Of a DNA stretch of 64,000 nucleotides, positions 35,941 through 64,000 are shown piece by piece (the first letter of the stretch is position 1; each line of letters starts with the position of its first letter). The stretch lies in assembly GCA_028701035.1 (NCBI GenBank), contig JAQVRO010000001.1, forward strand, positions 5,497 to 69,496, in the 5' to 3' direction. The position numbers and the translations under genes are program-made. The notes under the pieces were generated by a model. That model searched no databases, was not told the DNA's origin, and saw only the letters and a list, made by a program, of their open reading frames with translations. The DNA comes from Minisyncoccota bacterium (GTDB lineage: Bacteria > Patescibacteriota > Minisyncoccia > Minisyncoccales > CSSED10-335).

Positions 35941-36948
35941 TTATTTCTTAATCATTATACTTCTCTTATAGGCATCAATGTGATCCAATACCTCGCTAGT
36001 TCCCTTGGCGACGCAAACAAGTGGATCTTCGGCAATAAAACAAGGAACTCCTGTGCTCTCAGAAATCAAAACATCTATTTCTCTTAATAGTGCTCCTCCA
36101 CCAGCAACAACCATACCTTTGTCCATAATATCAGCTGAGAGCTCGGGCGGTGTATCTCGCAAAACCTGGCGAATGGCTTTAATCATTTCGTCTAGCGTCC
36201 CCTCCATTGCCTCGGCAACCTCATTAGAGCTAACATCAATATTTCTTGGCAAACCCAAGATAAGGTCTCGCCCCCTTACATTCATAGTCATTTCTTCTTT
36301 TACTGGAACTGCGGTTCCTATCTTAATTTTAATATCCTCGGCAGTTTGAATTCCAATAGCCAACTTATACTTCTTTTTTATATACTCTACTATAGACTCA
36401 TCAAGTTTATCTCCAGCTGTTCTTAGAGAGTAATATGTTACAATACCACCTAGGGATAATACTGCCACCTCTGAAGTTCCTCCACCAATATCAACAATCA
36501 TATGACCTGAGCAAGAGTTAATTGGTATACCGGCTCCAATAGCAGCCAAAACTGGCTCTTTAGTTAGGTAAACATTTTTAGCACCAGCTAGAGTGCCTGC
36601 TTCAATTACTGCTCTCTTCTCTGTTGATGTAATGCCAGCAGGAACACCAACAACTAAATCGGGTTTGAAAAAACTCCAACGCCCCAAACTCTTCTCAATA
36701 AAATAGCGAAGCATTGCCTCGGTAATCTTATACTCGGCAATGACGCCATCTCTCAGTGGACGATATACTTTTATAGTATCAGGAGTTCGGCCAATCATTT
36801 TTTTGGCCTCAGCACCAACAGCCATAACCTTGTTTTCTAAAACAGAAACAGCCACAACAGATGGCTCGTTAATAACAACACCTTTTCCCGGCACAAAAGC
36901 TAGTGAATTACATGTTCCTAAATCTATTCCAATTTTTCTTACAAACAT
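35941..36948 (-). CDS. mreB: actin-like rod-shape protein MreB (paralog 2)
   Basis: IGIDLGTCNSLAFV and an overall MreB pattern. 335 aa. Confidence 0.8.
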   Translation of the reverse strand: MFVRKIGIDLGTCNSLAFVPGKGVVINEPSVVAVSVLENKVMAVGAEAKKMIGRTPDTIKVYRPLRDGVIAEYKITEAMLRYFIEKSLGRWSFFKPDLVVGVPAGITSTEKRAVIEAGTLAGAKNVYLTKEPVLAAIGAGIPINSCSGHMIVDIGGGTSEVAVLSLGGIVTYYSLRTAGDKLDESIVEYIKKKYKLAIGIQTAEDIKIKIGTAVPVKEEMTMNVRGRDLILGLPRNIDVSSNEVAEAMEGTLDEMIKAIRQVLRDTPPELSADIMDKGMVVAGGGALLREIDVLISESTGVPCFIAEDPLVCVAKGTSEVLDHIDAYKRSIMIKK

Positions 36949-47115: not shown

Positions 47116-48245
47116 ACTTTTTGGTTTCTAAGATATTTGGCGGCTTCTTCTGGCTCAATTGTAGATATTTCTATTCCAACTCCAAGCTCAAAACCAGCCC
47201 AAATAGATGTTTTGGGTAATATTGTCCAATGCCAATGATAATATGAATGATCGGCATTGTCCGATGGAGCCGAGTGAAGATAAAAATTATAAGCTGGGTC
47301 TCCCAAGGCTTTGTATAGCTTCTTTAAAACAACGCGAAAGATATCGGCCAAGCTTTCTTTTTCTGCTTCAGTAATATTTTCGAAATGCGACAGATGTTTT
47401 TTAGGAGAAATGATTACTTGAAATGCAACCTTAGATGCGAAAGGACAAATAGCCATAAAATGTTTGTTTTGATAAACAATTCTCTCTTTCTCTTTTATCT
47501 CCCAATCATTCATTTTACAATAAATACAATCCCCATCTTTTTTATACTTCTTAGATTTAGCTAATGCTTTCTTTAGATCATAATCTATCAGCGGTATACC
47601 CGCTATTTGAGAATGAGGATGGCTCATAGATGCTCCTGCCTCAGGGCCATGATTATGGAATATGGCGACATAATTTATATTATCTTCTTTAATTAGTGCA
47701 TTATACCTATCAGCATAAACATCAATAACTTCTTTTACTTCTAGTAAGGACAACTGCCCCAAAGATTTATTATGATTCTTAGTAACAACAACCTCGTGAG
47801 CACCAACCGCATTCATTGTTTCAAAAAACTCACCTTTCTTTTTCCTATTAAGCTTACTAGAACGAACAAATGCTGGAAATTTATTAGGAATAACAACTGT
47901 GGTCCATTTTTTAATACCCTCAACCTCTTTGCCTTTATAGTATACAAGCAAGGGCTTTTCTTGAGTCTCAATATTACAGAAGAAACAGTCTTTTTTTAGT
48001 GACTTTATTTTACTATCTTTTGGCTTCTTAAAAGACTCGGGCCTTTTGGCCCTACCTGTAGCAATAACAACCCAATTGCCCGATGCTTTGTCTAGGCGTA
48101 ATTCTGATGGAAATTTATCTTCTTTCATATTTGATATTATAGCAAATGTTAGGGAAAAAACAAGAATCCGCTTAAAAGCGGATTCAAGTATTGGGCACAA
48201 ATCGTAATTATTGAATAACCTCAACCTCCTCTGCTTCTGTAGCAT
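47112..48245 (-). CDS. galactose-1-phosphate uridylyltransferase family protein (HIT superfamily). The true start may be an internal Met.
   Basis: CFFC zinc motif and the HPHSQ nucleotidyl-histidine motif (HxHxQ). Confidence 0.6.
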   Translation of the reverse strand: MLQKQRRLRLFNNYDLCPILESAFKRILVFSLTFAIISNMKEDKFPSELRLDKASGNWVVIATGRAKRPESFKKPKDSKIKSLKKDCFFCNIETQEKPLLVYYKGKEVEGIKKWTTVVIPNKFPAFVRSSKLNRKKKGEFFETMNAVGAHEVVVTKNHNKSLGQLSLLEVKEVIDVYADRYNALIKEDNINYVAIFHNHGPEAGASMSHPHSQIAGIPLIDYDLKKALAKSKKYKKDGDCIYCKMNDWEIKEKERIVYQNKHFMAICPFASKVAFQVIISPKKHLSHFENITEAEKESLADIFRVVLKKLYKALGDPAYNFYLHSAPSDNADHSYYHWHWTILPKTSIWAGFELGVGIEISTIEPEEAAKYLRNQKV

Positions 48246-48615
48246 TTGAAGTAATTTTTATTCTTGTGTTGGTTGTTGGATTGTCAAACTGAATCAAATA
48301 GCCATCATCGCCAGTTGAAGGATCTACTGGAATTCCTCCAATATGATCGCCCACTAAATCACTACTACAACTTAATACGGTTGCTGTTGAACCATCGGTT
48401 GGAATACAAGAAGGATAAACTCCTTGGTTTGATATAACATAAGAATAAACTGCGTTGGCAATACTATTCATGTTACTCCATCGTGTTGCATTTCTAGCTT
48501 GTTCAAATTGTCTACCAGGATTAATTGCAATAATAATTGCAGCTGCAAGAATTGCTATAATACCGATAACGATAAGCAACTCAATTAATGTAAAACCTTT
48601 TTTATTGTTCTTCAT
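48208..48615 (-). CDS. type IV pilin / pseudopilin
   Basis: Prepilin leader and N-methylation motif KKGFTLIELLIVIGIIAILAA. Confidence 0.7.
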   Translation of the reverse strand: MKNNKKGFTLIELLIVIGIIAILAAAIIIAINPGRQFEQARNATRWSNMNSIANAVYSYVISNQGVYPSCIPTDGSTATVLSCSSDLVGDHIGGIPVDPSTGDDGYLIQFDNPTTNTRIKITSNATEAEEVEVIQ

Positions 48616-48631
48616 ATTTTTTAAAAATAAA

Positions 48632-48994
48632 TTAATTGCCGACCTTTATGAAATCTTGACTAACCCATACTAATAAGTCATTATCTAAAATAATTTGGGA
48701 CCATCCATCAACGCCCCCCACTAATTCGTATTCTCCAGCTTCAATTAATCCAATCTCTTCCGATTCGTAACTAGGTTCAGTATAACCATAAACTTCATCG
48801 CCCGCAATAACTACAAAGTCTTTCATATCTAATTTAGCTTGCTCTATTTGAAACATAACAACGATTCTTTGTTTTAACGGTTGCATGGAATATGGCACAG
48901 GAAAATTAACCACATACCATAGAGAAAATACAAAAAATCCAAGCCCAGCAAATGCTATCATTAATGATGTTAAATATCCCGGTAATTTATCCAT
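48632..48994 (-). CDS. hypothetical single-pass membrane protein. Its extracytoplasmic domain is paralogous to the C-terminal domain of the neighbouring PilM-like protein.
   Basis: One TM helix, then PVPxxMxPLKxR and a beta-rich domain ending in W...I.V, similar to the tail of the 48996..50858 protein. Confidence 0.35.
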   Translation of the reverse strand: MDKLPGYLTSLMIAFAGLGFFVFSLWYVVNFPVPYSMQPLKQRIVVMFQIEQAKLDMKDFVVIAGDEVYGYTEPSYESEEIGLIEAGEYELVGGVDGWSQIILDNDLLVWVSQDFIKVGN

Positions 48995-48995
48995 A

Positions 48996-50858
48996 TTATT
49001 CTATAATAGTTTCTTCTAATAATAAATCTTCCTCTGAATCTTCCCCTGACTCTTCCTCTGGCTCATTAATATTAATAACTTCTATGTGTTCTTCGTTTGC
49101 CCAGCCCTCAAAACCTGCTACCTTTAGTTTATACCAAATATCAATTTTTTGCAACAATTCTATTTCATCTTCTACCGTTGCAACATATAAAACTTCGCTC
49201 CTCTCTCCCGGCAAAGCATAGATGTTTATGCCACTTTCAATAAACTCTTCTCTTATCTTAACCAGCAACTCTTCTTTATCTTTTTCTAAATAAAACTGAG
49301 TCATTACTCTGTGTTTTAATGGAACCATTGGTGCAGGGACAGGCAAAAGCACAAGATAAAGTATTGATAACGATAAAAGAAATATACCTGATAGAGCTAC
49401 AATTAACGAAGCCATCAAAACAGATTTTTGCTTACCTTGTTGAGTTTTAATCTCTTTTGCCTTTACTTCAGATGGCAAAAGGTTTATTCCATCTCTTACT
49501 GGATCTTCTGCGCCCCCTCTCAGGGCAAGACCAATAACATTAGAATATATTACTCCTTTAGTATCATCAAGATTACTCGTATCTTTAATTTTAGTTAAAG
49601 GATTGCCAATTTCAACTTTATTCCCAAAGAACTTTTGGAAAAACAAATCAATTTCTGGCAACAGCGCCGAGCCTCCAGCTAGAATAATCCTTTTAATATC
49701 CTTCTTGAATTCTTTCTTATAAAAAGACTCTGCTTCTTTAGCTTCGTTCACTATCCTTACGGCTTCTTTTTCAATTACCGAGTAGAACTGTGTTTGGCTC
49801 TTAAAACCATCCCTTACCTTTATTTCTTCAGCTTTATCTTTAGCTATATTCAAACTATCAGCAATTTTTTGTGTAAAATTAAAACCAGCTACAGGCACAG
49901 AAACAGCGAAACATATCGCACCAGCACTATCGTATACAGATATAATAGTGCTCTTTGCTCCAATATCTAAAATCATCGTATCCTCTATCTCGTCTTTTTT
50001 AACAACTTCTTTCTTCTTTTTAAATACACTTTTCTTGTTCTTGTTTTCTTCAGCAATAGGATCGTAAACCTTTCTTAATAACCCTCGCCCAGTAGCAAAA
50101 GACTCAACATCTAGAGCAACCGGCGTAATATTGGCTGCTCTTAAAAAATAAATATAGTTATCAACAACATCTTTATCTACCGCAACACAAATTACATCTA
50201 TCTGATTCTCTTTTTCTTGATTAGTAATCTTTAAGAAGTCCCAAGATATCTTCTTTAAAGGTAAAGGTATCGTTGTTTCTATCTTCTTAGTTAGCGCGTT
50301 ATAAAAGTTTTCTTTTGCATCTATTTGAAAATGATATATGTATGTTTTGCTCTCTGGTAAGCTAATAATCGCCTTTAGCTCTTTTATCTCTTCGGCAATC
50401 AAAGGAAATGGTTTTGTTTCTTTTAGAGTTTTGTTTAAGATGCTTATTAATTCCTTTTGGTTCTTGATATCCCCATCTTCCACAATACCTTCTGGTAATA
50501 TGGCTCTACCATAAGAGACAATTTTGCCTTGCCTGTTTAACTGCATTATCTCTATTGAGTGGTCACTTACATCTATACCAACGACTGGTTGCTTAGTGAC
50601 ATCTAATAAATCACTAACAACTTGAGATTGCCTAATTTTAGCCAACTGCAACTTCCAACCTTCATTAGGTTTTTCTTTTTTAATTTCTTTGCTTTGCTTA
50701 ATAATCTCGTTTATAATCTGAGTTGGGTTGGCGCCTCTTTTCTGGGCCTGCTCTAACAAAGCTTTCTTTTCTGGATTTGATTCAATTATCTTCTTTAATA
50801 TTAAATCATCTCCGGCTCCTCTTTCTCTAGCTTTTTTAATTGTTTCTTCTATTGACAT
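48996..50858 (-). CDS. PilM-like actin-fold pilus assembly protein fused to a C-terminal TM segment and a PilN/PilO-like periplasmic domain. About 100 aa of N-terminal extension.
   Basis: VGIDVSDHSIEIMQL and later actin-like ATPase segments. TM helix LMASLIVALSGIFLLSLSILYLVLL. C-terminal domain similar to the 48632 ORF. Confidence 0.5.
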   Translation of the reverse strand: MSIEETIKKARERGAGDDLILKKIIESNPEKKALLEQAQKRGANPTQIINEIIKQSKEIKKEKPNEGWKLQLAKIRQSQVVSDLLDVTKQPVVGIDVSDHSIEIMQLNRQGKIVSYGRAILPEGIVEDGDIKNQKELISILNKTLKETKPFPLIAEEIKELKAIISLPESKTYIYHFQIDAKENFYNALTKKIETTIPLPLKKISWDFLKITNQEKENQIDVICVAVDKDVVDNYIYFLRAANITPVALDVESFATGRGLLRKVYDPIAEENKNKKSVFKKKKEVVKKDEIEDTMILDIGAKSTIISVYDSAGAICFAVSVPVAGFNFTQKIADSLNIAKDKAEEIKVRDGFKSQTQFYSVIEKEAVRIVNEAKEAESFYKKEFKKDIKRIILAGGSALLPEIDLFFQKFFGNKVEIGNPLTKIKDTSNLDDTKGVIYSNVIGLALRGGAEDPVRDGINLLPSEVKAKEIKTQQGKQKSVLMASLIVALSGIFLLSLSILYLVLLPVPAPMVPLKHRVMTQFYLEKDKEELLVKIREEFIESGINIYALPGERSEVLYVATVEDEIELLQKIDIWYKLKVAGFEGWANEEHIEVININEPEEESGEDSEEDLLLEETIIE

Positions 50859-54078: not shown

Positions 54079-54927
54079 TCAACACACATAGTATCTTCCC
54101 CTATCCTTCTTCACAATTCCTTTTAAGCAAAGAATAGAAAGCGTCGTGTTCGTCTGTGAAATATTCATCTCTATAATCTTACAAATACTGTTTGCATCCA
54201 TCGCTTCGCTTTTCAAAACATCAAAAACTTTCTTTTCGTTTTCTGAAAGTCCTTCTACTTTTTTTGCACTTCTTTTCTCTGAGCTTTTATTAAAAAAAGA
54301 AAGTATTTCTTCTGCTGAAAGAACACTCTTGGCCAATCCTTCTTTGATAATTCTGTTTGTCCCTTGTGATGTGGGATTAAATATAGAACCAGGGACGGCA
54401 AAAAGTTTTCTTTTGTATTTAACTGCTAAATTCACCGAAATAAGTGTTCCGCTTTTTTCTTCTGCTTCAACGGCAAGCACTGCTTTTGAAAGTCCAACAA
54501 CAATCCTATTTCTTTTTGGATAAGTCCACTTGCTAGGAGGGTATCCGTTATCAAACTCAGAAAGAATAAGACCCTTCTCTTCTATCTCTTTGTAAAGATC
54601 TCTTTGATAAGCAGGATGAATAACATCAACCCCACACGGCATAACAGCAATTGTTTTTCCACCCACACTTAACGCTGCACGGTGTGCCGCCGCATCAACG
54701 CCATACATAAATCCAGAAACAATAGTCACTCCTTCTTTAGCAACCTTTGAAACAATTTCCTCAACAACTCTCTTGCCATAACTAGTTATTCTCCTTGAAC
54801 CAACAACCGCCAAAGTATCACTAAAAATACTCTCATCAAAATCCCCTCTATAATTCAAAGCAACAGGAGCATCCTCAATCCCCTTTAAAATACTAGGATA
54901 GTTTTTATTATCAAGAAATATCTTCAT
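54079..54927 (-). CDS. dprA: DNA processing protein A (Smf)
   Basis: Rossmann-like core LAVVGSRRITSYGKRV...GVDAAAH and a C-terminal winged-helix domain. Confidence 0.8.
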   Translation of the reverse strand: MKIFLDNKNYPSILKGIEDAPVALNYRGDFDESIFSDTLAVVGSRRITSYGKRVVEEIVSKVAKEGVTIVSGFMYGVDAAAHRAALSVGGKTIAVMPCGVDVIHPAYQRDLYKEIEEKGLILSEFDNGYPPSKWTYPKRNRIVVGLSKAVLAVEAEEKSGTLISVNLAVKYKRKLFAVPGSIFNPTSQGTNRIIKEGLAKSVLSAEEILSFFNKSSEKRSAKKVEGLSENEKKVFDVLKSEAMDANSICKIIEMNISQTNTTLSILCLKGIVKKDRGRYYVC

Positions 54928-55267
54928 AATGCGTAATTCTCTCTACTCCCCCATTATTATTTAGCACAATACAAATCAAATCTATTCTGTATTGCCCCTT
55001 GTAGTTTTTTCTTTGAGCGTATCCTAATGCCCCTCTTCTTAATCTCCTTGTCTTATCTTTTTTGATTGTTTCTTCTGGACTACCAAATCTTTCGCTAGTT
55101 TTTGTTCTTACTTCCACAAAAACAAGCTCATCATCTTTACTAGCAACAATATCAATTTCTACATATTCTGTTTTGTAATTCCTTTCTAAGATCTGAAAGT
55201 CATTCTTTTGTAAGTATTCACAAGCAATATCTTCTCCTTTTATTCCTACATCTTGTTTGTTATGCAT
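54911..55267 (-). CDS. yraN: YraN family endonuclease (UPF0102, PD-(D/E)xK fold)
   Basis: GIKGEDIACEYL...ILERNYK...EIDIVA...VFVEVRT. Confidence 0.7.
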   Translation of the reverse strand: MHNKQDVGIKGEDIACEYLQKNDFQILERNYKTEYVEIDIVASKDDELVFVEVRTKTSERFGSPEETIKKDKTRRLRRGALGYAQRKNYKGQYRIDLICIVLNNNGGVERITHYEDIS

Positions 55268-55278
55268 TATAATCGTTA

Positions 55279-56805
55279 CTATTTTCTCGGTTCATCTAGG
55301 CGATACTGCAACGCCTCAGCAATATGCTCTATTTTTATTTCTTCACTTCGACCAAGATCAGCAATTGTTCGCGCAACTTTTATTACTTTAAAATATGCTC
55401 TCGCAGACAAGTGAAACTCCAACGAAGCACTGACTAAAACATCCTCTACTTCTTTAGATAAAGAAGCATACTTTTCTATCTGCTTGTTCTTCATTTCAGA
55501 GTTTGTAAAAATATTTTCCTCTTTAAACCTCTCTTTCTGTAATTCTCTTGCTTTCTCAACTCTCTTTCTTATCTCTTTTGACTTTTCATTATTTGCCCTC
55601 TTCTTTTCTTCCGCAGTTAATTTTTTAGTTTCTACATCGGGAACCTCTATATGAATATCAATCCGATCAAGCATCGGGCCAGAAACTCTTTTCCTATACC
55701 TTTCAACTTCTCTCTCAGTGCAACTACACTGTTTCTTTTCACTGTTAAGATATCCACAAGGGCAGGGATTAGCAGCAGCAACAAACATATATCGTGCGGG
55801 ATAAACAACACTCTCAATACTTCTTGAAATATTTACATATCCGTTCTCCATCGGTTGTCTTAGAGCTTCCAACGCCGATCTTTGAAACTCGTTTAGCTCA
55901 TCTAAAAACAATACTCCTCTATGGGCAAGTGTCACTTCTCCGGGCCGAGGACGAGTTCCTCCGCCAGTAAGTCCAATTGAAGATATCGTGTGATGTGGAG
56001 CACGAAAAGGACGATTTTGAATAAGCGAACTTCCCGGAGGCAGATTGCCAGAAACAGAATATATCTTTGTTACTTCAATTGACTCTTCTTCATTTAATTT
56101 TGGGAGAATCCCCGAAAAAGCTCTTGCAAGCATTGTTTTCCCACTTCCCGGACCACCAATCATAAACAAATTATGCCCTCCCGCTGCCGCTATCTCTAAG
56201 GCTCTCTTTGCTTCTTCTTGTCCTAAAACTTCTTCCATATCAAACTCACAGAAAAAATCCTCCTTCTGTTTCTTGTACTTCGCTCTTTCCGGCTGTTCCC
56301 TTCCACTTAAAAATGCTGTTAATTGCGAAAGATCTTTTACTGGATAAACATTTACTCCCGCCACTACCGACGCCTCGTTAGCCGAAAGCATAGGAAGAAA
56401 TATATTTTTGTATCCGTTTTCTTTTGCAAAAAGAGCAAGTGGAAGCGCTCCTTTTGTATGCCTCAACTCTCCATTTAAAGAAAGCTCTCCAAAGAACAAA
56501 CTTTTTTCAGGAATGGTTAAATTTAAAACCGAAGCAATAATTCCAGTAGCTATCGGCAGATCATAACAAGAACCATCTTTGGGAACATCAGCTGGAGCAA
56601 GGTTAACAATTATTCTCCTTCTGGGAAACTCTATTTTTGAGTTGCTTATTCCCGCCCGAACTCGCTCCTTACTCTCATCAACAACCTTCGCTGGAAGTCC
56701 AACAATATCAAAACTGGGAAGCCCCTTCTTCATCACATTGACTTCCACATCAACCCCAATAGAATTAAGGCCTAAATGAGCGACAGATGGTATCTTAATA
56801 AACAT
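55279..56805 (-). CDS. comM: Mg-chelatase-like AAA+ ATPase YifB/ComM
   Basis: N-terminal Lon-like domain, Walker A GGPGSGKTMLA, Walker B LFLDELNEF, and a C-terminal Mg-chelatase subunit ChlI domain. Confidence 0.85.
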   Translation of the reverse strand: MFIKIPSVAHLGLNSIGVDVEVNVMKKGLPSFDIVGLPAKVVDESKERVRAGISNSKIEFPRRRIIVNLAPADVPKDGSCYDLPIATGIIASVLNLTIPEKSLFFGELSLNGELRHTKGALPLALFAKENGYKNIFLPMLSANEASVVAGVNVYPVKDLSQLTAFLSGREQPERAKYKKQKEDFFCEFDMEEVLGQEEAKRALEIAAAGGHNLFMIGGPGSGKTMLARAFSGILPKLNEEESIEVTKIYSVSGNLPPGSSLIQNRPFRAPHHTISSIGLTGGGTRPRPGEVTLAHRGVLFLDELNEFQRSALEALRQPMENGYVNISRSIESVVYPARYMFVAAANPCPCGYLNSEKKQCSCTEREVERYRKRVSGPMLDRIDIHIEVPDVETKKLTAEEKKRANNEKSKEIRKRVEKARELQKERFKEENIFTNSEMKNKQIEKYASLSKEVEDVLVSASLEFHLSARAYFKVIKVARTIADLGRSEEIKIEHIAEALQYRLDEPRK

Positions 56806-56968
56806 AATACAATTTGATTAAATTCTAACAAATATAATACAATTATTAATACTTATTTAATCTCTATACTTCGCTTAATTAAGGCGCCTGGCGCCTTAAT
56901 CTAACCTCCTTAATTTATACTTCGCTTAATTAAGGCGCCTGGCGCCTTAATCTGAACTCCTTAATACT

Positions 56969-57640
56969 TTAATCCTTTTCTATTAAATATTTATCTATAT
57001 CTTTTTTATTACGGCTTTCCTCAATCACCATTTTGACAAACTTTTTATACTCCACTACCGAATTTGACCCTTGTGCTTCAGAAAAATGATCAAGAATAAT
57101 GTCTTTACTCGCAACCAAATCGTCTGGCCTTTCTCCTAAGAAATATCCATAGCTTGTCCATGGATAATCTTCAACATCAGCTATTTTATGAATTTGTGAA
57201 TTACCATTGATATAGGCAGACAGCCAAAGAAGATAATCATCATTATCAATATGAATTGCTTTGTAAGCTCCTTGGAATAATCTACCTGGGCGATTGTATT
57301 TTTTATTAATAAAATTAGTATAGCTGTGTCCTATTTTGTGTAAAAATTTAGAAATACCATCATCGGTTAATTGTTGTAATATCAAATGATAATGATTAGG
57401 TAATAAATTATAAGCATTTATTGTGACTATTTTTTCTAATCCCTCTAAGAAGGAGCTTAGCTCCTTAATATCTTTACGAGCCACAGATGCCCTTTCTTCG
57501 TAATAAGATTTATTATTAAAATCCTTTAAGCCTCTTTTAAACATTTTATAATCTTCGTCTTCTCTAAAAAGCAATGAATCAGCTACAGCTCGATTATAAA
57601 CATGATAGTATTCACCATTGGTAAATTTTATTTTTCTCAT
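56969..57640 (-). CDS. REP-associated tyrosine transposase (RAYT; IS200/IS605-like Y1 HuH transposase)
   Basis: N-terminal YHVYNRA motif, HuH motif LPNHYHLILQ, downstream conserved Tyr region RLFQGAYKAIHID. 223 aa. Flanked by REPs. Confidence 0.7.
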   Translation of the reverse strand: MRKIKFTNGEYYHVYNRAVADSLLFREDEDYKMFKRGLKDFNNKSYYEERASVARKDIKELSSFLEGLEKIVTINAYNLLPNHYHLILQQLTDDGISKFLHKIGHSYTNFINKKYNRPGRLFQGAYKAIHIDNDDYLLWLSAYINGNSQIHKIADVEDYPWTSYGYFLGERPDDLVASKDIILDHFSEAQGSNSVVEYKKFVKMVIEESRNKKDIDKYLIEKD

Positions 57641-57748
57641 ATAACTTTTTTCGTTAAGGAGCCTGGATTAAGGAGCCAGGCTCCTTAATCTAACCTCCTT
57701 AATTTGTTGCTGTTGGTTATTGCTTGCATATTTATTATTTATATCTCC

Positions 57749-57776
57749 ATTATATATAATGTGTATTCTTTTGCAA
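57749..57776 (-). promoter_or_regulatory. sigma70 promoter TTGCAA-16-TATAAT upstream of the RAYT gene (second copy of the cassette)
   Basis: On the minus strand, -35 at 57776..57771 and -10 at 57754..57749. The transcript would traverse the REP at 57706..57654 before the RAYT ATG at 57640. Confidence 0.5.
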
Positions 57777-57849
57777 GCGTTCAGTTGTTTGGTTCTTGGT
57801 TAAGGAGCCTGGGTTAAGGAGCCAGGCTCCTTAATCCGACCTCCTTAAT

Positions 57850-59547
57850 TTATTTGGTGGTCCAGGTGGGGCCGTCTCCAACAGGTAAGAGGGTTCCGTG
57901 GTTGTCGTTTCCGCTTCTGTCGTAGGCGGTTTCGCCTTGACCTTCGTTTAATGGCCAGTGGCCAACGAGGCCGTTTCTGATATCGTAGCCTTTGTAGAGT
58001 TGCTCTACTTCTTCTGCAGAGAGAGCTCGGTTGTATATACGGACATCGTCGATAAGACCGTCCCAAAAATAAATATCAATACCCCCCACTCTTAAAGGTC
58101 CTACTATATCAATACTTGTAGAATCGACCCTACTTCCTATAAAAGAATTGTCAATAAATAGATTTGCATTAGATCCATTTCTAGAAAAAAATAAATAATG
58201 CCACTCTCCATCATTGTAATTCTCAGTTGTTGTTATTCTATTCGTACCTCCCCCCATCCAATAAACCCAAACTCCGTAAGGCTCATTATTAAAATTAAAA
58301 GATATATTATTAGCACTATAACTTGATCCAAAATTTAAAGCATGCATCCTCTTATTTGATATTTCGCTTTTAAACCAGAAACCAACCGAAAGATTATTTG
58401 TCCCAAAATCCCAGGCAGAATCATTCGGAATATTCGCATAATCGTTAGTGCCGTCGAAGTTTAGGGCGATTTCGGGGGCGCCGGTGGAAACTTCTTTGGT
58501 TTCGTCTTCAGTGGATTTTAAGGAAATGTTTTTGGTGACGGGGTTTTGCCAAATGGTATATTTGCTAGAATATTCGTAGTTGTATAGGTCTTGGATTTCT
58601 TCTGCTGATAGTGCTCGGTTATAGATGCGGACATCGTCGATAAGACCTTCCCATGACTGAGTTGTACTCCCTGGAAGGACTTGCCCAAATACATCATTTT
58701 CAGTATTATCGCCTAAAGTATCCAGAGATCCTGTTTCAGTTCCAGTTAAATTGCCATTTTTATAAGCTTTATAGGTTGTGCCATTTTTTACCCATGTAAT
58801 GTGTGTCCACTCATTTTCGGAGATAGTTCCAAAGTTTCCTCCTGTCCAGATGTCAATCCAATTACTGCCGGAGCCACTATAAAAAGAAATATTCTCTCCG
58901 TATATACCGACATAAAGAACCCCTTCCTTAGAAAATACTCTGTGATGTCCTGATGAAATTGGAGTCTTTACCCATGCTCCCAAAGACACCTCTGTTAAGT
59001 TGCTAGGGATTTTTACATCTCCTAAATCAATATAATCGTTATCTCCATCAAAATCTAAAGCTTCGCCCATTTTACCATCTACCCATGTAGGCCCATTAAA
59101 CAAAGTCCCATGGTTTTCGTTGCCACTGGCGTCATAGGCAGTTGTTCCACTTCCCTCGTCGAACTTCCAGTGTCCAACAAGCCCATCGGTAATATTACTT
59201 CCAGATATACTTCCCTCTTTTGGATCAACTAAATACTTACTTAAGTAGTTTGGTTTTAAGCAATCATACAAGTCATACTCTCCTGGGCCTGTGCCGATTG
59301 CAGTAAACTTATCTTGTGGAAGTGGTCCACTAGGACAATTCCAACCTCTATCGTTTTTTACTTTCTGTTGCACAGAGAGTAATATACTATTTAAATCTGA
59401 TTCTCTTTGAGAATCTCTTTGCGCTTTGATTTTTCCTACTGGGTCTACTGCTACCACAAAGAAAACTCCAAATATTATCATAACGCCAACGACAATCAAT
59501 AGCTCTATATATGTAAACCCTTTTGTTTTGTATAAATATTCTTTCAT
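57850..59547 (-). CDS. pilin-like protein with type IV pilin N-terminus and two LamG (concanavalin-like, Laminin_G_3) domains. The 3' end appears truncated by REP insertion.
   Basis: KGFTYIELLIVVGVMIIF. Two copies of GLVGHW..EGSG..AYD.SGN.NHGTL....W.......DFDG.NDY and LIDDVRIYNRALSAEE. The gene ends ...GPTWTTK, and its TAA stop is the first triplet of the REP tail. Confidence 0.7.
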   Translation of the reverse strand: MKEYLYKTKGFTYIELLIVVGVMIIFGVFFVVAVDPVGKIKAQRDSQRESDLNSILLSVQQKVKNDRGWNCPSGPLPQDKFTAIGTGPGEYDLYDCLKPNYLSKYLVDPKEGSISGSNITDGLVGHWKFDEGSGTTAYDASGNENHGTLFNGPTWVDGKMGEALDFDGDNDYIDLGDVKIPSNLTEVSLGAWVKTPISSGHHRVFSKEGVLYVGIYGENISFYSGSGSNWIDIWTGGNFGTISENEWTHITWVKNGTTYKAYKNGNLTGTETGSLDTLGDNTENDVFGQVLPGSTTQSWEGLIDDVRIYNRALSAEEIQDLYNYEYSSKYTIWQNPVTKNISLKSTEDETKEVSTGAPEIALNFDGTNDYANIPNDSAWDFGTNNLSVGFWFKSEISNKRMHALNFGSSYSANNISFNFNNEPYGVWVYWMGGGTNRITTTENYNDGEWHYLFFSRNGSNANLFIDNSFIGSRVDSTSIDIVGPLRVGGIDIYFWDGLIDDVRIYNRALSAEEVEQLYKGYDIRNGLVGHWPLNEGQGETAYDRSGNDNHGTLLPVGDGPTWTTK

Positions 59548-59551
59548 ATTA

Positions 59552-60799
59552 TTAATATGGTTTTGTACTTTCGTATAATAACTTTACTTCGCTTGGAGAC
59601 AAAGCTCGGTTGTATATACGAACATCGTCGATTTGTCCGTTGAAATAATCGACCAGAGAAGACCCGATTAACAATGGATAATTATTATTTATATTATATG
59701 GCCCTGTGCCTGTTTTTCTGATTGTTGTTAGTGACTTAGACTCCCCATCAACATAAACATAATGATTATCCCCTTTTCTTATAGCAACAACATTGTGCCA
59801 ATTACCATCTATAATGTCATCAGTTGTATACAGACGCACTTCATTGTCTGTGTCAGCTCGAACCCACCAACTTATTTTTTTTGATTCACTATGAACTCCA
59901 CCGAATGTCACTGTACCAATATAAATACTAACAAAATTGTATGGATCTATGGACTGTCTTTTTAATACAAGGCCCGCTATCTGGTCATTATTCAGTGCTA
60001 AAAACCATAACGATATTGACAAATCACTTATATTTGGTCTTAATTCAGGAGTATCTCCAATCTCCACATAATCCCCAACTCCATCAAACTCCAGTGCTCT
60101 ATCTTCTTCAAAAAACCTATTCTCCGACCAATCTGGTGCTCCAACTAATGTTCCATGATTATCGTTTCCACTAAAGTCATAGGCTGTTAGTCCTTTACCT
60201 TCGTTAAATGTCCAGTGGCCTACAAGTCCATCTGTTAAAAGCTTATCCGAAGGCTTTGAATTCTTGGCTCTTAAAGTATAAGCAGATATGAATTGGTCTG
60301 AAAAGTCATATTCTGGATAATTCTGCGGATTATAATACGAGGCTCCAATGGTTATTTGTACCGAACCAGGATCTTTAGGAAGACCAACATTTCTAAAGGT
60401 AAGACTATCAATCACTATACTTGATGCTGTTATTTTCTCCTGAGGATAACCTGCCACCTTCATTACAATAGCTCCGTCTTCAAGCCAAAAGAGAACTGGA
60501 TCGTTTTCATTGTTTGTTCTAAGCCATAACATATTTCCTGTTCTACCAGGTAATACTATCGTATCTGCATTCCTTATCTCTGCACCAATCTTTTGCATTG
60601 CAAAACGAACATTGTATGTTACCTCTTCTACAATTTCAGAATTAGAACTAGATGATAAAACATTGACTGCAATACCACCCATAGCCAAAAGAATACCCGA
60701 AAGAAGAAATGTATAAACAAGAAACTCAATAAAAGTAAAGCCTCTCTCCCTTTTCTTATTTAAATTATATTCTTTTAGAATCATAGTATTACCTAACAA
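59552..60799 (-). CDS. pilin-like protein with LamG domain (paralog 2)
   Basis: RGFTFIEFLV prepilin motif. GLVGHWTFNEGKGLTAYDFSGNDNHGTL...FDGVGDYVEIG...IDDVRIYNRALSPSEV. Confidence 0.7.
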   Translation of the reverse strand: MLGNTMILKEYNLNKKRERGFTFIEFLVYTFLLSGILLAMGGIAVNVLSSSSNSEIVEEVTYNVRFAMQKIGAEIRNADTIVLPGRTGNMLWLRTNNENDPVLFWLEDGAIVMKVAGYPQEKITASSIVIDSLTFRNVGLPKDPGSVQITIGASYYNPQNYPEYDFSDQFISAYTLRAKNSKPSDKLLTDGLVGHWTFNEGKGLTAYDFSGNDNHGTLVGAPDWSENRFFEEDRALEFDGVGDYVEIGDTPELRPNISDLSISLWFLALNNDQIAGLVLKRQSIDPYNFVSIYIGTVTFGGVHSESKKISWWVRADTDNEVRLYTTDDIIDGNWHNVVAIRKGDNHYVYVDGESKSLTTIRKTGTGPYNINNNYPLLIGSSLVDYFNGQIDDVRIYNRALSPSEVKLLYESTKPY

Positions 60800-61892
60800 C
60801 TTCTATTCTGCCTTGACGACCAACATTAATTTTAACAGAATCGCTACCGTCACTTAGCTCAATAATATTATCATCTACACCATCAAGCCCAGATTCATAT
60901 ATCAACCTTATTTCTTCCGCTGTAAGAGCACGATTGTAGATGCGGATGTCGTCAATAGAGCCGTTAAAAAATTGAGCGTAACCAGATAACGAACCAAGAT
61001 AAAGATTGGCACTTCCCCAATTATTCATGGTTCCACTAAAGGCTATAGTAGCTACCTGCATTCCGTCTATATATAAAAATTTATTCGTTCCGTTCCAGAC
61101 CCCTACCACATTGTGCCAATTTCCATCATTATAAGTTAATGGTGAAGTTAAAGTATTTGAATTGCCCGTATCCGTTAGAGTATAAAACTTTATAATATTA
61201 TTAGTAGAATCATCAACGCCAATAGCGTAACTACTATGAGAAGTATCTAAACGACGAAAGATAAAACAGCGAGTATTTTGAGAAGTATTAAATTTTATCC
61301 ATTGCGATATTGAAACTTGTGTTGTAATTGAATCTAAGCTTGTTCCACTTCCGCAATTCACATAATCGTCTGTTCCATCGAAATCTAGCGCCCCGCCAAC
61401 CTTACCATTTGCCCATGTAGGATCGTTAACCAAAGTTCCGTGGTTCTCCTGACCACTTAAATCGTGTGCTACGCCTCCCTCCCCTTCGTTCATTGTCCAA
61501 TGACCAACCAAGCCCTCAATTTGGGGTTTACCGCTATTATCAAAAACAATCTCTGGAGCTCCAGCAATAGTTATGTCTGAATAAAGTTCAAACACTTCGT
61601 CATATAAAGGATCTCTTTCTTCATAAGAGTTACCTTTAAAAGATGTATATGTTTCTGGTGTAAAATATACTCCCCAAAGGCTATCATCTCTACCTTTCAT
61701 TGACTTTGCCTGTGTTTGTCTTAAAACACTTAATAACTGAGAAGCTTCTTCTTCAACGGATTGTTTTTTTAAAGAACCAAAGCTTATTGGTATTGTCATA
61801 GCTGACAACATTGCAATCATTGAAACAACAAGCATAAGCTCAATGAAAGTGAACCCTTTTTGTCTTTTGCTTTTTTTTATAATCCAAAACAT
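60789..61892 (-). CDS. pilin-like protein with LamG domain (paralog 3)
   Basis: KGFTFIELMLVVSMIAML. GLVGHWTMNEGEGGVAHDLSGQENHGTL...FDGTDDYVNCG...IDDIRIYNRALTAEEI. Confidence 0.7.
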   Translation of the reverse strand: MFWIIKKSKRQKGFTFIELMLVVSMIAMLSAMTIPISFGSLKKQSVEEEASQLLSVLRQTQAKSMKGRDDSLWGVYFTPETYTSFKGNSYEERDPLYDEVFELYSDITIAGAPEIVFDNSGKPQIEGLVGHWTMNEGEGGVAHDLSGQENHGTLVNDPTWANGKVGGALDFDGTDDYVNCGSGTSLDSITTQVSISQWIKFNTSQNTRCFIFRRLDTSHSSYAIGVDDSTNNIIKFYTLTDTGNSNTLTSPLTYNDGNWHNVVGVWNGTNKFLYIDGMQVATIAFSGTMNNWGSANLYLGSLSGYAQFFNGSIDDIRIYNRALTAEEIRLIYESGLDGVDDNIIELSDGSDSVKINVGRQGRIEVVR

Positions 61893-61904
61893 ATTTTAGT
61901 GATA

Positions 61905-64000
61905 TTAACGGTTAACATGATACTCTAAACCTCTTTGGTACAAAAACTTTATTTCGTCTTCTGTGAGAGCACGGTTGTAGATGCGAACATCGTCTATAAG
62001 GCCGTTAGTATAATCAACATTAGCCTGATCTCTTTTTCCGATCCATAAGTCATCATCACCAGCAACAACTGCTTTAGGTGTTCCAGAATAAGAACCATTA
62101 ATATATTGTCCATCTATATAAAGCGATAACGTAGTTCCACTCCAAGTCATCATATAATGATGCCAATTATTATCTTGTAGAACTGTATGTCTTTTGTAGT
62201 AACCATCACTCGCCATCATGTCTATCGTTCCGTTATTATGGGATGAATAATAAACCTGATAACCTTCTAATTGATCATGGTTTGCATTCTTTTTCGAAAT
62301 CATGAAACTGCTGTCTATTCCAACTGTTCCTTGAAATTTACTCCACAATGATATTGATAAATCGCTATCTAGCGCCAAACTCGCATCATTTCCCACATCC
62401 ACATAATTTCCGACTCCATCGAAGTCCAAAGATTTGTCGTGGCGGCCATCTACCCATCTAGTGTATCTTATGATAACAATGCCAGAACCACCAGAACCAC
62501 CATCTCCAATGGGAGTAGTGTCGCTATGAGCACCTCCTCCTCCTCCACCACCACCTGTATTGGACAAAGCATCTTCTCCTTTCTGTTCTTCACTACTTGA
62601 AGTGTCATATCCATCACCTCCGTCACCACCACCTCCAGATCCTCCCTCCCCAGGGTTAACTCTATCTATAGTGGCATCGTTTCCCCCAATTGCACCACCT
62701 CCACCACCTGCGAACCAACCATATTCTCCATAATTATCTCCGAAAGTATGACCAAAATAAAGACCGTCTCCACCATCTTGAGCAACTGTTCCATCTGAAG
62801 AACCTCCTGGTTCTGAAGCACCTCCACCACCTGCCGAACTACCACCAGGACCATAATAATCCCCCCCCTTATTTCCTTGATTAAGGGTTCCTGCGCCACC
62901 CTCAACAGGATGATCAACATGCCTTGCACCTCCTCCACCGGATCCTCCACTATGTGGACTATTCTCAGAGATATTGTCAATGCTTGCACCCCTTCCACCC
63001 CCTACTGCTACAAGTGTATCGAATACTGAATTTTCACCATCTTGAGGAGCAGTGTCATTGTACCCACCTGCCCCGCCGTCACCGACATTAATTGAGATAC
63101 TACTTCCTGAGACTACATTGTATGAATCATCGAAAATCAACCCTCCAGCTCCTCCGCCGCCGCCGGCAGTATGATGATAGGTGCCACCATTATTAAGTCC
63201 ACCTCCTCCGCCGCCGCCGACAACAAGAACATCTACTTCCGTTACTCCTTCTGGCACAGTCCAGGTGTGACTACCTACTGTGGTAAAAGCTTCTATACCA
63301 ACATACTTTCCTTTAGAGCCACCTCTCTTGGCTCCATAAATAGTGCCATGATTATTATTCCCAGAACTATCAACAGCTAAATCACCAAATGTTTCATCCA
63401 TATCCCAATGACCGACTAAACCATCTGTGATGTTTTCTGTTTCGTTATAAAGTTTTTGAATTTCTGTTTCTGACAAAGCTCGGTTATAAATGCGGACATC
63501 ATCAATGAGACCATCAAAAAAACTAATCCAATCGCTACCGTTATACCTGCCCCCTATAGTAAAATAATTAGCGCCTTTTTTTAAAGTAGAATCTGATATT
63601 ATAGCACTATTTACAAAAACTCCATCAACATAAATACTGGCTTCTTTGGTAGAGCTATCAAACACACCAACAAAATGAATCCAATCATTAGTTTTTGAAA
63701 TTCCAGAACTAATCTCATAATAACCAGTGCTATCTCTAACAAGAAAAATAAACTCTCCACTTTCATTTATTCTTAAATCATACTGCTCCATTGAATTCTG
63801 TGCTCTTCCAGCGATAATAGTCCATGTATTCGGAACAGTATTTGCTTTTACCCAAGACGAAATAGTAACAGATCCATCTACTTCTGTTTCTGAAGAAGCT
63901 CCCATTGTCACATAATCGTCCACTCCGTCAAAATCTAAATATGATTCTCTATCGTCCGATGCCTCGTTATAAACAGCAGTGCCTCTGCCCTCATTCATTG
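61905..64000 (-). CDS. LamG-domain protein with a long Gly-rich low-complexity region (paralog 4), 5' end off window
   Basis: The ORF is open to the window edge. Three LamG-like modules (LDFDGVDDYV..IDDVRIYNRALSETEI; GLVGHWDMDETFGDLAVDSSGNNNHGTI; LDFDGVGNYVDVG..IDDVRIYNRALTEDEI). G-rich 62450..63260 with a G8 tract. Confidence 0.6.
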   Translation of the reverse strand, partial: MNEGRGTAVYNEASDDRESYLDFDGVDDYVTMGASSETEVDGSVTISSWVKANTVPNTWTIIAGRAQNSMEQYDLRINESGEFIFLVRDSTGYYEISSGISKTNDWIHFVGVFDSSTKEASIYVDGVFVNSAIISDSTLKKGANYFTIGGRYNGSDWISFFDGLIDDVRIYNRALSETEIQKLYNETENITDGLVGHWDMDETFGDLAVDSSGNNNHGTIYGAKRGGSKGKYVGIEAFTTVGSHTWTVPEGVTEVDVLVVGGGGGGGLNNGGTYHHTAGGGGGAGGLIFDDSYNVVSGSSISINVGDGGAGGYNDTAPQDGENSVFDTLVAVGGGRGASIDNISENSPHSGGSGGGGARHVDHPVEGGAGTLNQGNKGGDYYGPGGSSAGGGGASEPGGSSDGTVAQDGGDGLYFGHTFGDNYGEYGWFAGGGGGAIGGNDATIDRVNPGEGGSGGGGDGGDGYDTSSSEEQKGEDALSNTGGGGGGGGAHSDTTPIGDGGSGGSGIVIIRYTRWVDGRHDKSLDFDGVGNYVDVGNDASLALDSDLSISLWSKFQGTVGIDSSFMISKKNANHDQLEGYQVYYSSHNNGTIDMMASDGYYKRHTVLQDNNWHHYMMTWSGTTLSLYIDGQYINGSYSGTPKAVVAGDDDLWIGKRDQANVDYTNGLIDDVRIYNRALTEDEIKFLYQRGLEYHVNR

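What the first reader, a model, noticed from the sequence alone, without database searches (positions are those of the whole stretch)
57850..64000. Tandem array of four pilin-like LamG-domain paralogs next to the competence genes
Four consecutive minus-strand genes begin with type IV prepilin leaders (GFT[FY]IE). They contain one to three concanavalin/LamG-like modules with the conserved GLVGHW..EG.G...D.SGN.NHG and IDDVRIYNRAL[ST].EE motifs. They follow dprA-yraN-comM and a pilin/PilM cluster. The paralogs are diverged (~80% identity only at the conserved motif DNA), consistent with diversification of an adhesin-like pilus tip or minor pilin repertoire. This is the kind of surface protein proposed to mediate host attachment in episymbiotic CPR bacteria.
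Basis: partly seen in the sequence, partly recalled or inferred. Interest (0 to 1): 0.6.

Follow-up and report, generated by a model that had tools for sequence, protein, structure and literature searches.

The report
Lectin-tipped pilins with swappable cassettes
An ultrasmall Paceibacteria bacterium has an operon of five pilus-subunit genes, four of them in this window, each carrying sugar-binding-type (LamG) modules whose ~390-bp cores are replaced wholesale between closely related strains and even moved between genes, which makes them good candidates for the parts that decide what the cell sticks to.

Summary
Three complete minus-strand genes (57850-59547, 59552-60799, 60789-61892) start with canonical prepilin leaders (G|FT[FY]IE) and carry Laminin_G_3 modules. 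The fourth (61905 to beyond 64000) is cut by the window end. Its full form (837 aa) starts with a non-canonical SG|FIALT leader lacking Glu5, and a phage-type glycine-rich domain is nested inside one of its LamG modules.

These are not recent tandem duplicates. They are genes B to E of a conserved five-gene minor-pilin operon. In relatives this operon directly follows a PilB/GspE-type ATPase gene and a PilC/GspF-type platform gene.

The main new result is a mosaic pattern. Between strains the pilin scaffolds and linkers are 80-100% identical, while every LamG core (~130 aa) is only about 20-27% identical, with sharp borders at the FDG.DDYV and F.G.IDDVRIY motifs. One ~390-nt cassette with a single mismatch sits in gene A of one strain and in gene E of another.

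Best reading: tip-displayed lectin-like pilins whose specificity cassettes are exchanged by recombination. Pilins carrying lectin modules are already known; the cassette exchange and the permuted and nested modules are new variants.

The parts
57850..59547 (-). Gene E (565 aa, MDD4062224.1). Layout: prepilin leader MKEYLYKTKG|FTYIE, long alpha1 helix, complete LamG1, conserved linker, circularly permuted LamG2.
58647..59045 (-). Hypervariable cassette of gene E LamG1. It cannot be aligned to relatives, while its flanks are 81-84% nt identical.
58061..58451 (-). Hypervariable cassette of gene E LamG2.
57853..57987 (-). C-terminal tail (aa 521-565, GLVGHWPLNEGQGETAYDRSGNDNHGTLLPVGDGPTWTTK). It provides the first strands of LamG2, placed after the core (circular permutation). 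It is conserved in all orthologues.
   Evidence: pLDDT 81-92, strands 527-531, 551-554, 561-563; the tail matches module-HMM positions 36-75 and the core matches 74-235; in permuted order the two align as one domain
59552..60799 (-). Gene D (415 aa from TTG, or 410 aa as called by NCBI). Leader ...KKRERG|FTFIE, a 175-aa pilin domain, one LamG module.
59638..60051 (-). Hypervariable cassette of gene D. Six different alleles occur in six lineages (19-27% aa identity), on a scaffold that is 80-100% identical in five of them.
60789..61892 (-). Gene C (367 aa). Leader MFWIIKKSKRQKG|FTFIE. Pfam N_methyl and TIGR02532 both score above their cut-offs. There is weak similarity to GspH and ComGD. One LamG module.
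60968..61374 (-). Hypervariable cassette of gene C.
61905..64000 (-). Gene B, cut by the window end. The full protein (837 aa, MDD4062227.1) would start near position 64418. Leader MFKNKKQSG|FIALT, without Glu5. It carries LamG-a and then LamG-b, which has a nested glycine-rich domain.
63514..63910 (-). Hypervariable cassette of gene B LamG-a.
62463..63284 (-). Gly_rich_2 (PF21722) domain, inserted between the first strands (GLVGHW..NHGT) and the rest of LamG-b. Its fold matches viral glycine-rich domain proteins.
   Evidence: (pLDDT 90-98)
62006..62377 (-). Hypervariable cassette of gene B LamG-b.
57647..57854 (.). Two REP-like hairpin units (TTAAGGAGCCTGGCTCCTTAA core) directly after the gene E stop codon. 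They are a possible operon terminator and belong with the neighbouring RAYT-like gene.
56969..57640 (-). IS200/Y1-type, REP-associated-tyrosine-transposase-like gene. It holds the same position in relative L081. Context only; no link to the cassettes was found.
54079..56805 (-). comM (55279-56805), yraN/UPF0102 (54911-55267) and dprA (54079-54927). Context only.
48208..50858 (-). Small pilin (48208-48615, N_methyl 39 bits), a candidate major subunit, and a PilM-like protein with a C-terminal extension (48996-50858).

Best explanation
The region holds genes B, C, D and E of a five-gene operon of modular minor pilins of a type IV filament in a Paceibacteria (CPR) bacterium. Gene A lies just beyond the window end.

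Each protein has a class III (prepilin) signal and a hydrophobic first helix, which would insert it into the pilus. Each also carries one to three LamG (concanavalin-A-like) jelly-roll modules. Gene B in addition carries a phage-type glycine-rich domain.

By analogy with the tip complexes of other type IV filaments, I infer three things:
- The five proteins prime assembly and end up at the pilus tip.
- The Glu5-less gene B product sits on top.
- The complex displays up to nine lectin-like modules that bind surface glycans of a host or partner cell.

Each module has a conserved rim (first strands, FDG.DDYV, F.G.IDDVRIYNRAL) that joins it to the scaffold. It also has a core of about 130 aa that is exchanged as a unit. 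Strains with nearly identical scaffolds carry unrelated cores, and the same cassette turns up in different slots in different strains. I therefore infer that binding specificity is reprogrammed by recombination with breakpoints in the conserved rim codons.

Shown here: the pilin signals, the LamG fold, the operon order, the link to the ATPase and platform genes in relatives, the mosaic pattern, the cassette transfer, the circular permutation and the nested domain.

Inferred: pilus-tip location, glycan binding, host attachment and the recombination route.
For: Pilin signals:
- The leaders are G|FTYIE, G|FTFIE and G|FTFIE in the window, plus G|GILME (gene A) and G|FIALT (gene B) from the database. 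They are conserved in all orthologues.
- N_methyl and TIGR02532 score above their cut-offs for gene C.
- The gene C N-terminus matches the N-terminal helices of solved pilins.
- The AF2 model of gene E has a helix at residues 13-65.

LamG modules:
- Laminin_G_3 E-values range from 1e-23 to 1e-57.
- Foldseek finds laminin LG, neurexin LNS and the sugar-binding domain 4 of AbnA (TMt 0.75).

Operon:
- L083 has the order ATPase, platform, A, B, C, D, E. L082 has platform, A, B, C, D. L081 has B, C, D, E, RAYT, comM.
- NCBI accessions for genes E, B and A are MDD4062224, MDD4062227 and MDD4062228, which fits five adjacent genes.
- More distant Patescibacteria show pilA, ATPase, platform and then LamG pilins.

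Mosaic pattern:
- Scaffolds are 80-93% nt identical, and every core is unalignable.
- Protein profiles show 80-100% identity in scaffolds against 5-35% in cores.
- Gene D has six alleles at 19-27% identity to each other.

Cassette movement:
- L082 gene A module 3 equals L083 gene E module 1. They share about 390 nt with one mismatch and sharp borders, while the scaffolds of these strains are 84-96% identical.
- The same placement is seen in two independent assemblies, L081 and L082.
- The last module of P0124 is 97.7% identical to module 2 of gene A on the window's contig.
- L085 combines the gene C allele of L081 with the gene D allele of L083.

Literature precedent:
- Modular pilins with PF13385 modules are frequent and include CPR examples (PMC8179133).
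- S. sanguinis PilC is a lectin pilin that binds glycans at the tip (PMC9934059).
- TM7x PilX1 and PilX2 are lectin-like minor pilins, and PilX2 contributes to host binding (PMC11623550).
Against: - There is no expression, proteomic or imaging evidence that these proteins enter a pilus.
- N_methyl is below its cut-off for gene D and is not reported for gene E.
- No prepilin peptidase gene lies in the window.
- The N-domain of gene B is modelled with pLDDT below 45, so its pilin fold is unverified.
- Matches to the GspH and ComGD/E/F/G models are far below their cut-offs, so assignment to individual minor-pilin types is not established.
- LamG domains also bind proteins or serve structural roles, so sugar binding is not shown.
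- Only about six lineages were available. The donors of the cassettes are unknown.
- There are no silent copies in the window.
- Synonymous-site similarity of the flank motifs among paralogues is at chance level. Exchange between slots therefore has only short, imperfect homology to work with.
Confidence: 0.65

Rival explanations
1. The filament is a competence (Com-type) pseudopilus. The plan of ATPase, platform and five pilins mirrors comGA to comGG, and the array sits beside comM, yraN and dprA. The LamG modules would then help capture DNA or dock onto cells that supply DNA.
For: - The operon plan in L083 fits this.
- There are weak NCBIfam matches to ComGD, ComGE, ComGF, ComGG and ComGB.
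- comM, yraN and dprA lie downstream both here and in L081.
Against: - All ComG matches are far below their cut-offs. The ATPase and platform score better against the GspE/PilB and GspF models.
- None of the five pilins is a small major pilin like ComGC.
- In L001 a gene E homologue follows secY, so the link to comM is not fixed.
- In TM7x the T4P-2 pilin mutants kept normal competence (PMC11623550).
Confidence: 0.1
2. The variation is driven by escape, not by choice of target. The tip pilins would be receptors for phages or targets of predators or antagonists, and core replacement removes the recognised surface.
For: - Allele identity is bimodal and turnover is fast on near-identical scaffolds. 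This is the pattern expected for surface structures under negative frequency-dependent selection.
- LamG and glycine-rich modules are shared with phage tail fibre and virion protein families.
Against: - The evidence does not distinguish this from host-range switching, and the two can act together.
- No related sequence was found on viral contigs.
- Replacing all nine modules seems more than is needed for escape alone.
Confidence: 0.15
3. The LamG modules are carbohydrate-binding or glucanase-type modules of a secretion-type pseudopilus, used to scavenge polysaccharides rather than for cell-to-cell attachment.
For: - The closest single-domain structure is the arabinan-binding domain 4 of the GH43 arabinanase AbnA.
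- The ATPase and platform score highest against the GspE and GspF models.
Against: - No glycoside hydrolase catalytic domain is detected in any of the five proteins.
- No secretin or other type II secretion components were found in the window or in the loci.
- Patescibacteria are described as having a monoderm-type envelope (my own knowledge).
- The GspE and GspF scores are below the equivalog cut-offs.
Confidence: 0.07
4. The mosaic and the shared cassettes are artefacts of metagenome assembly across repeated motifs or mixed strains.
For: - All sequences come from metagenome assemblies.
- The operon contains a repeated motif nine times.
- Reassortment such as that in L085 could arise from chimeric assembly across conserved scaffolds.
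Against: - The motif copies are only 58-81% identical in DNA, which is too low for k-mer mis-joins.
- The gene A module 3 cassette is found in two independent assemblies from different samples, which are 99.9% identical over 6.4 kb.
- All reading frames are intact.
- The same pattern is seen in data from NCBI, JGI, ENA and Logan.
Confidence: 0.03

Closest known systems
Streptococcus sanguinis PilC, and modular pilins in general (Raynaud et al. 2021, PMC8179133; Shahin et al. 2023, PMC9934059)
   Same: - An N-terminal pilin module carries a grafted concanavalin-A-like/LamG lectin module.
- It is a minor pilin predicted to sit at the pilus tip together with a Glu5-less partner.
- PF13385 grafts are listed among the most frequent modular-pilin architectures, and CPR representatives are among the 15 most frequent architectures.
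   Different: - Here all five pilins of the operon are modular, with nine LamG modules in total.
- One module is circularly permuted, and one carries a nested glycine-rich domain.
- The cores are exchanged as cassettes between strains and between slots.
- No S. sanguinis PilC chain appeared among the PDB chains matched by sequence to gene E.
Nanosynbacter lyticus TM7x minor pilins PilX1 and PilX2 (PMC11623550)
   Same: - They are Patescibacteria type IV pilus minor pilins with large C-terminal lectin-like domains. [quoted passage not shown]
- PilX2 contributes to host binding, and sugars inhibit binding.
   Different: - The lineage differs (Saccharibacteria against Paceibacteria).
- Each TM7x pilin has a single accessory domain.
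- No cassette variation, permutation or nested domain is reported there.
- Sequence relatedness was not tested here.
HIJK-type tip complex of minor pilins (GspH/I/J/K; FimU-PilVWX)
   Same: - A fixed set of several different minor pilins is encoded together next to the machinery genes.
- One bulky member lacks Glu5.
   Different: - There are five genes here rather than four.
- Sequence matches to GspH are sub-threshold, and GspI/J/K were not matched by any of the five array proteins.
- The bulk here comes from LamG grafts, not from the GspK alpha-domain.
R64 shufflon (PilV tip adhesin) and Neisseria pilE/pilS antigenic variation
   Same: Pilus subunit specificity is changed by swapping sequence segments while the conserved N-terminal part is kept.
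   Different: - No invertase gene was found.
- No inverted repeats flank the cassettes.
- No silent cassette copies lie in the window.
- Variation is seen between strains, not yet within a clone.
Receptor-binding module swapping in phage tail fibres
   Same: - The same module types (LamG, glycine-rich domain) occur in tail fibre and virion protein families.
- A conserved attachment part is combined with a replaceable distal binding part.
   Different: - These are cellular pilins, and no close relative was found on viral contigs.
- The replaced unit is the inside of a domain, not a whole C-terminal domain.

Membership tests
Type IV pilin (class III signal peptide protein) | Short charged leader ending in Gly, followed by about 20 hydrophobic residues | tested here: met
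   Genes C, D and E show this in the window. Genes A and B show it in their database full-length forms. The feature is conserved in orthologues.
Type IV pilin (class III signal peptide protein) | Glu at position 5 of the mature protein | tested here: met
   Present in genes A, C, D and E. Absent in gene B (Thr5), as in GspK-type and S. sanguinis PilA-type capping subunits (PMC9934059).
Type IV pilin (class III signal peptide protein) | Curated N-terminal methylation-site model scores above its cut-off | tested here: inconclusive
   Gene C passes (PF07963 25.9 against 21.2; TIGR02532 22.7 against 16.3). Gene D scores 16.1, below the cut-off. No match is reported for genes E, B or A.
Type IV pilin (class III signal peptide protein) | Lollipop fold: long alpha1 helix plus a beta-sheet head | tested here: inconclusive
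   The gene E model has a helix at residues 13-65 and a few strands, at pLDDT 50-80. The gene B N-domain has pLDDT below 45.
Type IV pilin (class III signal peptide protein) | Encoded alongside the filament machinery (assembly ATPase, platform protein) | tested here: met
   Met in relatives L083 and L082 and in distant loci. For the window's own contig it is inferred only, because that region lies beyond the window end.
Type IV pilin (class III signal peptide protein) | Cleavage and N-methylation by a prepilin peptidase, and incorporation into a filament | not testable with these tools
   This needs biochemistry or proteomics. No peptidase A24 gene lies in the window.
LamG / concanavalin A-like lectin-glucanase superfamily (Pfam Laminin_G_3) | Significant profile match and jelly-roll fold | tested here: met
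   PF13385 scores 83-194 bits against a cut-off of 27.6. Foldseek finds laminin LG, neurexin LNS and AbnA domain 4.
LamG / concanavalin A-like lectin-glucanase superfamily (Pfam Laminin_G_3) | Ligand (glycan) binding | not testable with these tools
   This needs glycan arrays or binding assays.
Modular pilin, as defined by Raynaud et al. 2021 | [quoted passage not shown] | tested here: met
   definition taken from PMC8179133
HIJK core minor pilins / ComG minor pilins | Sequence membership in the GspH/I/J/K or ComGD/E/F/G families | tested here: not met
   The best scores are GspH 33.3 against 80, ComGD 30.6 against 70, ComGE 26.2 against 49 and ComGF 17.7 against 80. The resemblance is in gene set and layout only.
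Programmed variation systems (shufflon, pilS-type silent cassettes, diversity-generating retroelement) | Invertase with inverted repeats, or silent donor copies, or a reverse transcriptase with a template repeat | tested here: not met
   No inverted repeats flank the cassettes. No further LamG copies lie in window 1-57800. No recombinase or reverse transcriptase was seen among the annotated neighbours apart from a RAYT-like Y1 gene. The rest of the genome was not seen.
TafC family fimbrial protein (NCBIfam NF052521, haloarchaeal Tat-fimbriae) | Score above the equivalog cut-off | tested here: not met
   Scores are 59-106 bits against a cut-off of 410. The match covers only the shared LamG part (PMC11821415).

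The most novel reading that the evidence does not exclude
The nine LamG cores form a pool of ~390-bp specificity cassettes. These cassettes move at high frequency between slots, between genes and between strains, through recombination at the conserved rim codons. DNA taken up by the cell's own competence machinery (comM and dprA lie next door) may feed this exchange. The pilus tip would then be a combinatorial, population-level host-recognition device, an adhesin counterpart of phage receptor-binding-protein swapping in an episymbiotic bacterium.
Probability: 0.3. Interest if true: 0.8.

Novelty: new variant of a known kind. Interest (0 to 1): 0.6.

Why it matters
How ultrasmall episymbiotic bacteria recognise their partners is an open question, and most of them cannot be cultured. 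This locus offers concrete, testable candidates for specificity determinants. It has nine discrete cassettes with defined borders on a conserved pilus scaffold. Their alleles can be catalogued in metagenomes, correlated with co-occurring hosts, and expressed for binding assays. The circularly permuted LamG and the glycine-rich domain nested in a LamG also show how freely these modules are re-engineered. The near-identical cassette found in two different genes shows that the exchange is recent.

Tried and rejected
- Looking up the window's own contig failed. Exact-product look-ups of the NCBI-sourced proteins returned nothing. The species-representative genome scan did not contain this genome. 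The region beyond 64000 was therefore reconstructed from database proteins and accession order.
- The metagenome scan with gene D returned only two loci. The viral-contig scan with gene B returned none.
- I tested the idea that IS insertion truncated gene E and rejected it. The tail is conserved in all orthologues and completes module 2. The RAYT-like gene holds the same place in L081.
- I tested for ongoing gene conversion among the paralogous flanks and rejected it. Identical codons at identical residues number 100 of 196 against 89.9 expected, and 58 of 189 against 75.5 expected.
- I considered a diversity-generating retroelement, a shufflon or silent cassettes. No supporting features were found.
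- A PDB sequence search with the gene D pilin domain gave nothing meaningful.
- The AF2 model of the gene B N-domain was uninformative, with pLDDT below 45.
- The TafC match is only shared LamG similarity.
- The promoter and terminator scan was at background level.

Full report
**What is in the window**

Positions 57850-64000 hold four tightly packed minus-strand ORFs: 57850-59547 (565 aa), 59552-60799 (415 aa), 60789-61892 (367 aa) and 61905-63998. The gaps or overlaps between them are 4-12 nt, which suggests an operon.

The first three begin with canonical prepilin signals: MKEYLYKTKG|FTYIE, ...KKRERG|FTFIE and ...SKRQKG|FTFIE. Each is followed by about 20 hydrophobic residues.

Pfam finds Laminin_G_3 in all four proteins (E 1e-23 to 1e-57), with two modules each in the first and the fourth. 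It also finds a Gly_rich_2 domain in the fourth. N_methyl passes its cut-off only in the 367-aa protein.

There are six IDD[VI]RIYNRAL and five GLVGHW..NHGT motifs. The 74-nt 3' motif DNA is 64-81% identical among copies.

Downstream lie, in order:
- REP-like hairpins and an IS200/RAYT-like gene;
- comM, yraN and dprA;
- a 992-aa coiled-coil/TPR protein;
- a PilM-like gene and a small pilin gene.

The rest of the window is housekeeping genes.

**The fourth gene and a fifth**

The fourth ORF is cut by the window end. An exact database match (P0121, MDD4062227.1, 837 aa) shows that its true N-terminus is MFKNKKQSG|FIALTSVLLFGALIL. This has a pilin-like shape but lacks Glu5, as do capping subunits such as GspK or S. 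sanguinis PilA (PMC9934059).

The same 78.6-kb contig of a 'Candidatus Pacebacteria' MAG encodes a fifth such protein, P0112 (MDD4062228.1, 745 aa). It has the leader KNKG|GILME and three LamG modules. The accession numbers run 224 (565-aa protein), 227 and 228, which fits five adjacent genes. I call them A (P0112), B, C, D and E, in transcription order.

**Not tandem duplicates, but a conserved minor-pilin operon**

The N-terminal domains of genes A to E are unrelated beyond the first helix. The only exception is C against E, at 30% identity over 95 aa. The nine LamG cores of this genome are only 18-31% identical to each other.

Each gene has its own orthologue, in the same order, in related assemblies:
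- L083 (Logan): a membrane protein, a PilB/GspE-type ATPase, a PilC/GspF-type platform, then A, B, C, D, E.
- L082 (JGI): platform, then A, B, C, D.
- L081 (JGI): B, C, D, E, then the RAYT-like gene and comM.

More distant Patescibacteria loci show major pilin gene(s), ATPase, platform, and then pilins with LamG motifs.

Matches to the GspH and ComGD/E/F/G models exist but are far below their cut-offs. The resemblance to HIJK or ComG sets is therefore one of layout, not of demonstrated membership.

**The mosaic pattern**

DNA comparison of the window with L081 and L083 gives alignable blocks of 80-93% identity. These are interrupted by six unalignable gaps of about 400 bp: 63910-63514, 62377-62006, 61374-60968, 60051-59638, 59045-58647 and 58451-58061. 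Each gap is the core of one LamG module.

At protein level the scaffolds and linkers are 80-100% identical, while the cores are 5-35% identical. This holds for all nine modules of genes A to E. It also holds against the closest relative, the 165.5-kb contig, whose scaffolds are about 95-100% identical.

For gene D, six lineages carry six different cores. The cores are 19-27% identical to each other. The scaffold is 80-100% identical in five of these lineages.

Identity between cores is bimodal: they are either essentially the same or as different as unrelated family members. This argues for replacement rather than gradual divergence. The borders fall just after FDG.DDYV and just before F.G.IDDVRIY.

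**Cassettes move between slots**

An all-against-all comparison of 48 cores found three notable matches:
- Module 3 of gene A in L082 is 99% identical to module 1 of gene E in L083.
- The last module of the chimeric protein P0124 is 97.7% identical to module 2 of gene A on the window's contig.
- P0006 module 1 is 65% identical to gene A module 1.

The DNA alignment of the first pair shows about 390 nt with a single mismatch. Its borders are sharp: one lies right after the FDG codons, and the other lies inside the F.G.IDDVR codons. The orthologous scaffolds of the same two strains are only 84-96% identical. The transfer is therefore more recent than the split between the strains.

The placement in gene A appears in two independent assemblies from different samples, L081 and L082. 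The motif copies are too dissimilar (58-81%) to cause k-mer mis-joins. Both points argue against an assembly artefact.

L085 combines the gene C allele of L081 with the gene D allele of L083, which is reassortment between strains.

Within the window, synonymous codons in the flank motifs match no more often than codon usage predicts. The flanks are therefore conserved as protein, not homogenised by ongoing conversion. No extra LamG copies lie elsewhere in the window. No inverted repeats or recombinase genes suggest a programmed switch.

**Unusual module architectures**

Gene E ends with GLVGHWPLNEGQGETAYDRSGNDNHGTLLPVGDGPTWTTK. Three observations show otherwise:
- The tail is conserved in all orthologues.
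- Module 2 of gene E lacks exactly these first strands.
- Against an HMM built from 300 canonical modules, the core aligns to positions 74-235 and the tail to positions 36-75. In permuted order the two align as one continuous domain, scoring 168.9 bits.

In the AF2 model the tail forms strands with pLDDT 81-92. This is a circularly permuted LamG. I could not inspect the model coordinates, so the strand packing is inferred.

In gene B the Gly_rich_2 domain sits between the first strands and the rest of LamG-b. In the full-length protein it spans about residues 379-652 by Pfam and 370-656 in the model, with pLDDT 90-98. The orthologue in L081 carries a second copy inside the pilin N-domain. This domain and the LamG modules match phage tail fibre and virion protein families. 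They also match viral glycine-rich domain proteins, for example Halorubrum phage HF2 at TMt 0.76.

**Function**

The fold search places the modules with laminin LG, neurexin LNS and a sugar-binding domain of an arabinanase.

The closest characterised systems are:
- S. sanguinis PilC, a pilin with a concanavalin-A-like lectin module that binds host glycans from a tip complex (PMC9934059).
- The wider class of modular pilins, in which PF13385 grafts and CPR examples are frequent (PMC8179133).
- The lectin-like minor pilins PilX1 and PilX2 of the Saccharibacterium TM7x, of which PilX2 contributes to host binding (PMC11623550).

I therefore read the locus as a set of tip-displayed, lectin-like minor pilins whose binding cores are exchanged by recombination.

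Tip location, glycan binding, a role in host attachment and the recombination route are all inferred.

The rival readings are:
- a competence-type pseudopilus;
- variation driven by escape from phages;
- polysaccharide scavenging;
- assembly artefact.

Each is weighed in its own section of this report. None fits as well, though escape and target choice may act together.

**Novelty**

Pilins carrying LamG modules are known, including in CPR bacteria. What I did not find in the searched literature is the following:
- a whole five-gene set decorated with nine modules;
- cassette replacement with defined borders;
- movement of a cassette between genes;
- the permuted and nested module forms.

I rate the finding a new variant of a known kind, of moderate to good interest.

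Noticed in passing
window 56858-56970, 57647-57854 and 30022-30093: Pairs of REP-like palindromic units (core TTAAGG[AC]GCC[TA]GGC[GT]CCTTAA) flank the IS200/RAYT-like gene on both sides, and a further pair lies 27 kb away. There are 12 matches against 0 expected. The RAYT-like gene holds the same position in relative L081, so it looks resident rather than newly inserted.
   Followed up: partly
window 50864-53842 (-): A 992-aa Glu/Lys-rich coiled-coil protein with TPR-like units sits between dprA and the PilM-like gene. It contains a 306-nt tandem duplication (52532-53159, 95% identical) and shows a strong AT skew (-0.34 to -0.37). Its function is unknown.
   Followed up: partly
window 48996-50858 (-) and 48632-48994 (-): The PilM-like protein (620 aa) has a long C-terminal extension with a hydrophobic segment and an SH3_3-like end. 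The next small ORF also has a weak SH3_3 match. This could be a fusion of PilM with a PilN-like anchor.
   Followed up: no
window 32370-33437 (-) and 35941-36948 (-): Two full-length MreB paralogues (E 1e-133 and 1e-134) lie within 4 kb of each other in an ultrasmall-genome bacterium.
   Followed up: no
window 4080-5765 (+) and 19645-21237 (+): Two large ORFs (561 and 530 aa) have no Pfam match at E <= 0.001.
   Followed up: no
L081 378-3590 (P0122, 1070 aa): The gene B orthologue in this relative carries a second Gly_rich_2 domain inserted into the N-terminal pilin domain. The glycine-rich domain is therefore also a movable insert.
   Followed up: partly
L083 10633-12879 (748 aa): The gene E orthologue of this strain replaces the permuted LamG2 and its tail with an unrelated C-terminal region of about 380 aa, ending in a LamG-like IDELVVLPYAL motif.
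   Followed up: no
L001 8765-9451: In Parcubacteria bacterium ADurb.Bin247 a gene-E-type pilin follows secY at the end of the ribosomal protein operon, with no genes A to D upstream. The E-type gene can therefore occur on its own.
   Followed up: partly
P0002 and P0004 (both on one 165.5-kb NCBI contig): That close relative encodes two gene-E-type proteins with different N-domains and different cores. Some genomes may therefore hold more than one copy of at least part of the set.
   Followed up: no
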